Of a stretch of 42,316 nt of DNA, positions 26,599-27,505 are shown one piece after another (the first letter of the stretch is position 1; each line of letters begins with the position of its first letter). The translations under genes and the position numbers were made by a program. Location of the stretch: contig NW_027592553.1 of the NCBI RefSeq assembly GCF_964213995.1, forward strand, positions 443-42,758. The letters are read 5' to 3'. Below the pieces are notes generated by a model that saw nothing but the letters and a program-made list of their open reading frames with translations, searched no databases and had not been told where the DNA came from. The stretch is from Mustelus asterias (Eukaryota).

Positions 26599-26791
26599 TA
26601 TTTATTGAAGATATATAGCACTGGAGATACGTTTCAGGATCTACCGGACAGATTTTCTTGCTGTTTTGCGCAAAGGAAAGAAAACTGTTCTTTTTAACAT
26701 TGCCGGGATGCTTCTCCCTGACTCCGCCGTGTATCCCTGTGCCACGGAGCCCACACTGCTGCAGAGATAGAGCGGATCCCGGACAACAACC
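26599..26791 (+). pseudogene. TCR V 3' remnant (family G) with frameshift and degenerate RSS
   Basis: YLLKIYSTGD...DRFS/frameshift/...DSAVYPCATE; CACACTG 26752-26758 + 24 + ACAACAACC; paralog of 31819-32122. Confidence 0.85.
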
Positions 26792-27505
26792 CCACACATG
26801 GGAGTTCCAGTTAGGTACCACCAGAGGGCGCACTTACGCTGCTAAACAGAACCAATAATTCACTCTCCATGTGAGTCACAGGGACCTTCCCAAGATATCA
26901 GAGAAAAAACACAATCTCAACAAGAGGTGAGCAACATTTGAGGAGTTATATTAGTTTATTTTAACTTGCATTTGTGCTATCGCCGATCTTCTTAAATCTA
27001 TTCCATTTTGTTAGTTTAGTTGTTGCCCTTGGATGCAGTTTCCCTGCCTCTAATATTGATCAACTCGATCCCCATCTCCCCTGAGAGGTTTCTGAAGTCT
27101 ATCACCGCGGCCTGGTCACTGGGTTTATTTGATCCGAGAGATGTGCTGCTTCCGAGAAAGTGTAGACACAATGAAGAAATTTCACAATGAAGTGACTGTG
27201 ATCTTTTAAATAGACATTGAGCACAGAATTCCCCCAATGACCAGTGAACTTCAGGATGTTTCCGTAATGCTGTTTTGTTACTATGAGCAACCCAGAATTT
27301 GCAGCTGCTAATTAACAGAGCAGGGTTTCATCCCCGCAACCCCATCCGGAAAAGTGCACCCGTTCCCCTATCGAGGTGCTGAAATCAGCTCGGCTCGAGG
27401 GATTTCCTTTCGATATCAGCCAGCTCACCACTGAGAGATCTCACAGACTCATAGAGACACAATGATTGAAGTGGCAGGATACTGGAAACACTTGGGCTGA
27501 TCCCA

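What the first reader, a model, noticed from the sequence alone, without database searches (positions are those of the whole stretch)
26752..26831. CTCF-like motif fixed 25-26 bp downstream of the RSS in a V clade
Seen: CCACCAGAGGGCGC (26818-26831), TCAGCAGAGGGCGC (32186-32199) and CCAGTAGGGTGCGC (40943-40956) lie 26, 25 and 25 bp after the nonamer of three related Vs, in the same orientation as the V. Other motifs occur at 19114(+), 26291(-) and 3851(-). Known: RSS-proximal CTCF elements of mouse proximal IgH V segments promote RAG access during cohesin loop extrusion. Inference: a similar RSS-CTCF module in a shark TCR locus, attached to the Vs with weak RSSs (CACACTG, 22 or 24 spacer), may compensate for them. 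This would imply an ancient or convergent mechanism.
Basis: partly seen in the sequence, partly recalled or inferred. Interest (0 to 1): 0.75.

Follow-up and report, generated by a model that had tools for sequence, protein, structure and literature searches.

The report
Shared CTCF cassette in shark TCR
In a shark T-cell-receptor alpha/delta gene array, two unlike families of gene segments share a short conserved stretch right behind their DNA-cutting signal that matches the two-part binding site of the chromosome-looping protein CTCF, so sharks likely arrived separately at a layout known from mammalian antibody genes, although binding and function are untested.

Summary
Observation confirmed: CTCF-type cores lie 26, 25 and 25 bp behind three nonamers. 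The locus is TCR alpha/delta (143 J-like segments and a C exon on a contig with the same V families). In unselected blocks 23 of 102 Vs carry the site, always at one offset; the other 79, and the sampled TCR-beta, TCR-gamma and IgH-type Vs, have none. The core changes as slowly as the nonamer, 2-3 times slower than the downstream flank, and variants spare high-information positions; the margin over spacer and linker is small. The carriers are not one clade (AU p=0.001): two V families share a 3' cassette (V end, 24/22-bp RSS, CTCF site). So this is one origin, not three. 'Compensation for weak RSS' is unsupported: CACACTG also occurs on 16 of 79 site-less Vs. Unlike mouse Igh, orientation is mixed. 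Two of the three window Vs are broken. No binding or usage data. The scan noted the same element before on other DNA of this genome and in other sharks. New variant of a known kind; interest 0.45.

The parts
26598..26751 (+). V1: truncated pseudogene, 3' part of a V exon of the V2 family (stops upstream, YPC in place of YFC)
26752..26791 (+). RSS of V1: CACACTG, 24-bp spacer, ACAACAACC
26799..26808 (+). CTCF upstream-motif match TGGGAGTTCC (7/10 to CTGCAGTTCC), 9 bp before the core
   Evidence: geometry from PMC12885311
26818..26831 (+). CTCF core match CCACCAGAGGGCGC, 19.4 bits
31820..32122 (+). V2: open V exon (family 1); leader and promoter missing in this copy (likeness to full copies ends near 31630)
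32123..32160 (+). RSS of V2: CACACTG, 22-bp spacer (24 in older copies and in relatives' contigs), ACAAAAACC
32167..32176 (+). CTCF upstream-motif match TGGGAGTTCC (7/10)
32186..32199 (+). CTCF core match TCAGCAGAGGGCGC, 19.4 bits
40373..40418 (+). Leader exon of V3 (MGIQLFPILIVISLL, then GTAAGT)
40575..40877 (+). V3: open V exon (family 0); the only complete carrier in the window
40878..40917 (+). RSS of V3: CACACTG, 24-bp spacer, ACAAAAACC
40924..40933 (+). CTCF upstream-motif match AGGCAGTTCC (8/10)
40943..40956 (+). CTCF core match CCAGTAGGGTGCGC, 15.6 bits; T at a position that is nearly always G, fixed in family 0
19114..19127 (+). Separate class: strong CTCF core (24.2 bits) 758 bp upstream of the heptamer of V 19869, promoter side
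38789..38802 (-). Same promoter-side class (19.9 bits), about 600 bp upstream of the broken V at 38202(-)
26291..26304 (-). CTCF core (16.9 bits) upstream of V1, facing away from it; family-1 copies elsewhere have a similar site about 1.4 kb upstream
3851..3864 (-). Intergenic CTCF core (18.1 bits), not RSS-linked

Best explanation
The element is a conserved two-part CTCF-type site 25 bp behind the RSS of two TCR alpha/delta V families, which likely binds CTCF and likely raises the chance that these Vs meet RAG by holding cohesin loops next to their RSS. Shown: the sequence, its fixed place, its restriction to one 3' cassette (last ~40 bp of V, RSS with a 24- or 22-bp spacer, upstream motif, 9-bp linker, core), slower change than the downstream flank, and that the carriers are not one exon clade. 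From established knowledge: zinc fingers 3-7 read the core and 9-11 the upstream motif, so bound CTCF would reach to about 6 bp from the nonamer and would stop cohesin arriving from the V's downstream side. Inferred: for Vs that face the D/J end (4 of 4 carriers on the J-bearing contig, including the most proximal V found) this parks the RSS beside a RAG-loaded centre, as at mouse proximal VH. For inverted carriers it would anchor loops inside the V array and help contact by diffusion, as at Igk or Tcrb. Inferred origin: one gain, then either transfer between families by crossover or conversion at the shared V end (favoured, about 60%) or retention from a common ancestor with loss in families 5 and 10; independent of mammalian VH sites.
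For: Fixed place: 118 of 124 cassette copies keep a site >=9 bits, 109 of them at 24-26 bp; upstream-motif-to-core distance 9 bp in 108 of 108 scored. Specific: 23 of 102 Vs in contiguous blocks, other 79 at most 8.4 bits; 44 of 44 genome-wide exact RSS+core matches are this cassette, control 0. Changes per site on the tree (37 rows): core 1.21, upstream motif 1.12, nonamer 1.33, spacer 2.17, downstream 4.06. With 5 motif-ascertained and 5 tail-replaced rows removed (27 rows): core 0.93 vs downstream, ratio 0.46, p=0.006; changes fall with CTCF information content, rho -0.48, p=0.038. 26 distinct variants cost -2.3 bits on average vs -3.4 expected, p=0.0007. 5 of 7 control V families show no such dip (ratios 0.78-1.48). 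Contigs of four runs labelled as other or unlabelled organisms cover the cassette; 0 of the 40 best-supported differences fall in 32139-32220, vs 12 before and 28 after. The two-part motif is the same in lamprey, chicken and human (PMC5504073, passages). Mouse precedent: PMC6746451, PMC7930373, PMC11153149.
Against: No binding, chromatin or usage data. One origin only. Core vs spacer p=0.10 and motif vs neighbouring linker bases p=0.23: the whole block from the V end to the core end is conserved, which a conversion tract also gives. Control families 5 (ratio 0.15) and 7 (0.55) show a dip without any CTCF site. Family 0 has a fixed G-to-T at a near-invariant core position. The site persists in pseudogenes, some with deleted nonamers. 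Carriers face both ways (66 forward vs 59 reverse), unlike >98% one way in mouse Igh. No reverse-facing site >=13 bits between the last V and the contig end on the J contig, though a gap and the contig end leave this open. One search shows 40 of 281 differences, and pile-up of paralogues can dilute differences inside the cassette. The substitution test left out copies scoring under 0.
Confidence: 0.5

Rival explanations
1. It is a true CTCF site, but one more of the many architectural sites of the V array (insulation, promoter or loop spacing); its place behind the RSS is inherited geometry with no special effect on that V's recombination.
For: CTCF motifs >=15 bits are about 12-fold enriched across the array even outside the cassette (5e-5 vs 4e-6). 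Families 6, 7 and 10 have promoter-side sites at about -680 to -780. Upstream-motif sites are typical of insulators (PMC12885311, passages). Mixed orientation.
Against: Distance to the nonamer stays 24-26 bp in 109 of 118 copies while indels pile up right after the core. In mouse such sites are needed for use of the adjacent VH (PMC7930373, passages).
Confidence: 0.22
2. It is a hitchhiker: one chance motif copied along with the V end and RSS by duplication and gene conversion, not under selection for CTCF binding.
For: Single origin; whole block conserved; family 5 shows a conserved block of similar length with no motif; kept in pseudogenes; motif vs linker not significant.
Against: A core >=15 bits plus a >=7/10 upstream match at the right spacing is rare by chance (0.3% per V times about 0.9%). 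Variants avoid informative positions. One copy (C818:42637) keeps 34 of 41 bases with family 1 while its exon is family-0-like and its flank aligns weakly or not at all (that copy was found by motif).
Confidence: 0.15
3. One reading: the site evolved to compensate for weak RSSs (off-length 22/24-bp spacers, CACACTG).
For: 22 of 23 carriers have a non-23 spacer vs 6 of 79 non-carriers. Mouse VH RSSs next to such sites are weak without them (PMC11153149, passages).
Against: One event, not 23. Family 10 has a 24-bp spacer and a decayed site yet open frames. CACACTG is a favoured heptamer class and common without the site. RSS strength was not measured here.
Confidence: 0.2
4. The conserved block is read by another factor; for example the linker holds CAGTTA, a c-Myb-type word, and the upstream part a kappa-B-like GGGAGTTCC (both motifs recalled).
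For: Linker bases 17-22 are as conserved as the core (1.33 changes per site).
Against: These words vary between subfamilies (CGGTTA, CAGTCA, GGCAGTTCC) while the CTCF geometry stays; the block ends at the 3' edge of the core.
Confidence: 0.07

Closest known systems
RSS-associated CTCF sites of mouse and human IGH VH clans II/III (VH81X-type; PMC6746451 parts 1-3 of 8 read plus passages; PMC4914699 and PMC7930373 passages)
   Same: CTCF core at a fixed distance 3' of the nonamer, facing downstream of the V; tied to particular V families; on the most D/J-proximal V found; CpG at the 3' end of the core; removed with the signal end on deletional joining.
   Different: TCR alpha/delta, not IgH; shark, where print reaches mouse, human, chimpanzee and rabbit. 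25-26 bp to the CC vs about 19-21 in mouse (17-19 to GACC; human 19 or 48). The space between is conserved and holds an upstream motif, whereas in mouse its sequence is reported as not conserved. Orientation is mixed. The site is kept in pseudogenes. Carriers are not one exon clade.
CTCF sites of mouse Tcra/d and Tcrb V regions (PMC5859386 and PMC10772921, passages)
   Same: Dense CTCF motifs in the V array, many upstream of V promoters, in both orientations. The shark promoter-side sites (e.g. 19114) fit this class.
   Different: Mouse Tcra/d sites are listed as upstream of promoters or intergenic; only 2 Tcrb sites are listed near an RSS. A whole RSS-linked class in TRA/D is not described in the passages read.
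Two-part (core + upstream) CTCF sites (PMC12885311, PMC5504073, passages)
   Same: 10-bp upstream motif, 6-bp linker plus a TGG-like triplet, then the core; within the stated 2-7 bp linker range.
   Different: 7-8 of 10 match only; family-0 core has a non-consensus T.
Mouse Igk V region (PMC11153149, passages)
   Same: Vs in both orientations over megabases, so joining by inversion and diffusion would be needed.
   Different: None of 103 Vk segments has an RSS-proximal site, and Igk RSSs are unusually strong.

Membership tests
RSS-associated CTCF element (IGH clan II/III type) | CTCF core at a fixed distance 3' of the nonamer | tested here: met
   24-26 bp in 109 of 118 scoring copies; the distance differs from mouse by about 5-6 bp
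RSS-associated CTCF element (IGH clan II/III type) | Core conserved like the RSS and more than surrounding DNA | tested here: inconclusive
   Met against downstream flank (p=0.006) and by substitution pattern (p=0.0007); not significant against whole spacer (p=0.10) or linker (p=0.23)
RSS-associated CTCF element (IGH clan II/III type) | Restricted to particular V families | tested here: met
   23 of 102 Vs, all with the cassette's V end; 0 of 79 others
RSS-associated CTCF element (IGH clan II/III type) | Presence predicted by the V coding-region tree | tested here: not met
   One clade of carriers rejected, p-AU 0.0014 and 0.0011; not rejected when family 10 (decayed site) is added, p 0.13 and 0.12
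RSS-associated CTCF element (IGH clan II/III type) | Uniform orientation toward D-J-C across the locus | tested here: not met
   Carriers on both strands within C232 and C71 blocks; 4 of 4 face J on C546
RSS-associated CTCF element (IGH clan II/III type) | Convergent partner sites at the D-J-C end | tested here: inconclusive
   No reverse site >=13 bits from 63 kb to the end of C546; a 200-N gap and the contig end 9 kb past C leave room
RSS-associated CTCF element (IGH clan II/III type) | Homology with mammalian VH sites (on IgH V genes) | tested here: not met
   On TCR Vs; none behind 2 IgH cluster Vs and 3 IgW-like Vs sampled; small sample
RSS-associated CTCF element (IGH clan II/III type) | Bound by CTCF/cohesin in recombining lymphocytes | not testable with these tools
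   No ChIP or accessibility data reachable
RSS-associated CTCF element (IGH clan II/III type) | Needed for use of the adjacent V | not testable with these tools
   No repertoire data reachable
Two-part CTCF site (zinc fingers 3-7 plus 9-11) | Core match to CCASYAGRKGGCRS | tested here: met
   19.4, 19.4, 15.6 bits; consensus quoted in PMC6746451
Two-part CTCF site (zinc fingers 3-7 plus 9-11) | Upstream motif at allowed spacing | tested here: met
   7-8 of 10 in the window, 6-9 of 10 in 39 copies tabulated; chance of >=7 is 0.9%; spacing invariant
TCR alpha/delta V array | 23-type RSS Vs linked to D, J-alpha-type segments and a C exon | tested here: met
   C546 holds the same V families, D/J-delta-like segments at 120.8-121.3 kb, 143 J-like segments and a C exon at 240 kb; chain names by recalled motifs

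The most novel reading that the evidence does not exclude
Sharks evolved, apart from mammals, a portable RSS-plus-CTCF cassette that was copied from one TCR V family onto another and lets Vs with off-length 22/24-bp signals recombine through cohesin loop stalling. CTCF-guided RAG targeting would then be a repeated solution in jawed vertebrates, and regulatory modules could move between V families by conversion at the V end.
Probability: 0.2. Interest if true: 0.7.

Novelty: new variant of a known kind. Interest (0 to 1): 0.45.

Why it matters
RSS-adjacent CTCF sites are a central piece of the loop-extrusion model of V(D)J recombination, but the papers read here take them no further than mammals and IgH. 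A shark TCR alpha/delta version suggests the design arose more than once. It sits in a multi-megabase array with Vs in both orientations, where linear RAG scanning alone cannot work. Natural copies with and without the site, facing either way, make a ready test of what such a site does. The shared 3' cassette also shows that recombination signals and their regulators may have a different history from the V exons they serve.

Tried and rejected
Expression and V usage: no RNA holder listed. Runs X4 and X5 cover introns and repeats like low-depth DNA and showed no V-J joints among the rows listed; no evidence either way. Protein searches gave one unnamed hit and one uncharacterised houndshark protein at 96%; the PDB search only confirmed a V domain. 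A dispersed repeat or transposon origin was rejected: none of the first 100 of 125 pattern hits lies on contigs C1-C70. A reverse-facing site behind an exact RSS: 0 matches. Spacer likeness as proof of cassette transfer was rejected, because family 10 is as alike (15 of 20 vs 13-15). Permissive global alignments inflate identity and were replaced by local and anchored comparisons. One search had a mistyped pattern (0 hits; corrected). The first tree held one partly frameshifted row; the rerun without it gave the same result. The lead that TCR-beta Vs carry such a site was not borne out in this genome: 0 of 16 TCR-beta-like and 0 of 5 TCR-gamma-like Vs, best 7.7 bits. The primary VH81X paper (Jain 2018) was not held, so it is cited through PMC7930373 and PMC11153149. 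Literature searches for a shark or fish report listed none; the library lacks most subscription papers, and supplements such as Table S3 of PMC6746451 were not opened.

Full report
1. Observation. With a recalled JASPAR MA0139.1 matrix they score 19.4, 19.4 and 15.6 of 27.8 bits. Sites of 15 bits or more occur at 5e-5 per base and strand elsewhere in the fetched array and at 4e-6 in a second-order Markov model, so about 0.3% per V for a 60-bp window. Each core has an upstream motif, TGGGAGTTCC or AGGCAGTTCC, ending 9 bp before it. PMC12885311 (passages) describes such a 10-bp motif, read by zinc fingers 9-11, with a 2-7 bp linker and a TGG-like triplet before the core; here the linker is 6 bp. 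A match of 7 or more of 10 at that spacing has a 0.9% chance. Lamprey, chicken and human CTCF share this two-part motif (PMC5504073, passages), so a shark should too (inference).

2. Locus. The window holds 14 V-RSS units on both strands. The genome is 3.68 Gb, and relatives of V2 and V3 lie on C71 and dozens of other contigs. The one named protein hit is a houndshark protein at 96%. Contig C546 holds the same V families, D/J-delta-like segments, a 200-N gap, 143 J-like segments and a C exon, so this is TCR alpha/delta (chain names rest on recalled motifs). In the window V1 is a truncated pseudogene. V2 has an open exon but has lost its leader, which at least 22 of 38 family copies keep. V3 is complete.

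3. Who carries it. In contiguous blocks 23 of 102 V-RSS units have a site of 12 bits or more within 80 bp, all at one offset; the other 79 reach 8.4 at most (the blocks were chosen because they held carriers). Genome-wide, 44 of 44 exact RSS-plus-core matches are this cassette, with 0 in the control and 0 in reverse orientation. The two-part pattern has 125 matches. A BLAST with the V end and RSS gave 138 hits. After dropping family-5-like, family-10-like and short-flank rows, 118 of 124 keep a site of 9 bits or more, 109 at 24-26 bp, and the upstream-to-core distance is 9 bp in 108 of 108 scored. No such site lies behind 16 TCR-beta-like, 5 TCR-gamma-like, 2 IgH cluster and 3 IgW-like Vs.

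4. Not one clade. V2 (family 1) and V3 (family 0) are 42% identical in protein. Family 1 is closer to family 5 (58%, same leader, no site); family 0 is closer to family 10 (48%, decayed site). The exon-body tree rejects one clade of carriers (p-AU 0.0014 and 0.0011) but not carriers plus family 10 (0.13, 0.12). Upstream DNA and exon bodies follow the tree. The last 45 bp of V and the 41 bp after the nonamer group families 0 and 1 instead (31-33 of 41, vs 13-16 for family 5 and 15-21 for family 10), and a weak likeness runs on downstream for V3 (z 5-8) but not for a second family-0 copy. Transfer of the 3' end between families is the simpler reading. Retention from an ancestor of all four families with two losses is not excluded, since they form a moderately supported group (88/77).

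5. Is it under selection? On a tree of 37 non-redundant copies the core changes 1.21 times per site, the upstream motif 1.12, the nonamer 1.33, the spacer 2.17 and the downstream flank 4.06. Removing 5 copies found through the motif and 5 with replaced tails leaves 27 rows: core 0.93, linker 1.67, spacer 1.50, downstream 1.4-2.1. Core vs downstream p=0.006; core vs spacer p=0.10; changes fall with information content, rho -0.48, p=0.038. The spacer is biased toward conservation because it was part of the search; against its unconstrained positions p=0.0006. Motif vs the other bases of the block is not significant (p=0.23). The 26 distinct variants cost less than random ones (p=0.0007; copies scoring under 0 left out). 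Five of seven control families show no dip at the same offset; families 5 and 7 do. Contigs from four runs of other or unlabelled organisms cover the cassette. None of the 40 best-supported differences (of 281) falls in 32139-32220, and 2-bp insertions show a 24-bp spacer there, so 22 bp is likely derived. This is weak support, because paralogue pile-up can dilute differences. Overall: selection for a CTCF site is likely (about 70%), not proven.

6. How it likely works. Bound CTCF would cover from about 6 bp past the nonamer to 41 bp, and would stop cohesin coming from the V's downstream side (established knowledge, recalled). In mouse, RSS-associated sites impede RAG scanning and raise use of proximal VH well beyond what the RSS gives (PMC11153149 and PMC7930373, passages). 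On C546 all 4 carriers face D/J and the most proximal V found is a carrier, which fits. Elsewhere carriers face both ways within a contig, so many could only anchor loops inside the array and join by diffusion, as at Igk and Tcrb (PMC11153149, PMC10772921, passages). No convergent partner of 13 bits or more was found at the D-J-C end, but the assembly is incomplete there. Compensation for weak signals is doubtful. CACACTG keeps the features RAG favours (PMC10536018, passages) and occurs on 16 of 79 site-less Vs. The tie to 22/24-bp spacers (22 of 23 vs 6 of 79) is one inherited event.

7. Comparison. It works like the RSS-associated sites of IGH clans II/III (PMC6746451, parts 1-3 of 8 and passages; PMC4914699, passages) but is not a member. 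It is on TCR Vs, about 5-6 bp further out, has a conserved upstream motif in the gap, lacks uniform orientation and is not predicted by the exon tree. Mouse Tcra/d sites are listed as promoter-side or intergenic, with 2 Tcrb sites near an RSS (PMC5859386, passages). The shark array also has the promoter-side class. Searches for a shark or fish report listed none, in a library without most subscription papers. Earlier notes of this scan describe the same element on other pieces of this genome and similar ones in other sharks. They are not independent support; their bony-fish claim was not testable here, and the TCR-beta lead was negative in this genome.

8. Verdict. Observation confirmed; interpretation partly supported. 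A likely functional, convergent RSS-linked CTCF site carried on a cassette shared by two V families. New variant of a known kind; interest 0.45; the boldest reading has probability 0.2 and interest 0.7.

Noticed in passing
window 19114-19127(+), 38789-38802(-); families 6, 7, 10 in L061-L120: A second class of CTCF motif sits about 600-780 bp upstream of the heptamer, same strand as the V, in several families; this resembles mouse Tcra promoter-side sites.
   Followed up: partly
G000 C71 4.5-17.8 Mb and dozens of contigs C87-C2933: The TRA/D-type V array is very large (260 exact V-RSS pattern hits genome-wide), with Vs on both strands; many copies on C71 and the 1-3 Mb contigs are broken. Part may be haplotype duplication.
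   Followed up: partly
G000 C546 120.8-240.3 kb (L173-L185): D/J-delta-like segments, a 200-N gap, 143 J-like segments and a C exon; most J heptamers are CACAGCA/CACAGTC/CACAGCC with nonamer ACACAAACC.
   Followed up: partly
family 1 copies, e.g. C232:63611, C436:282336; window 26291-26304(-): Family-1 Vs often have a strong CTCF motif about 1.4 kb upstream facing away, so the V is flanked by a divergent pair.
   Followed up: no
family 10, e.g. C71:6527612: 24-bp spacer and a decayed copy of the cassette (TCCAGTT..GTGGTCA) without a core, in open-frame Vs.
   Followed up: partly
family 5, e.g. C232:103036: About 55 bp behind the nonamer are conserved with no CTCF motif; another element or a duplication boundary.
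   Followed up: partly
G000 C24 52.55-52.62 Mb: TCR-beta-like V array with 10 strong intergenic CTCF motifs, 9 on the + strand and 1 on the - strand, following the local V direction.
   Followed up: no
window 32185: Contigs in three of four other runs lack one base between upstream motif and core, giving the other commonly reported CTCF spacing.
   Followed up: no
C90:1033588, C106:744185, C119:521909: A 6-bp deletion removes half the upstream motif and brings the core to 19 bp from the nonamer, the mouse distance.
   Followed up: no
window 41706-42307: C-rich tandem arrays, 25-bp and 15-bp units.
   Followed up: no
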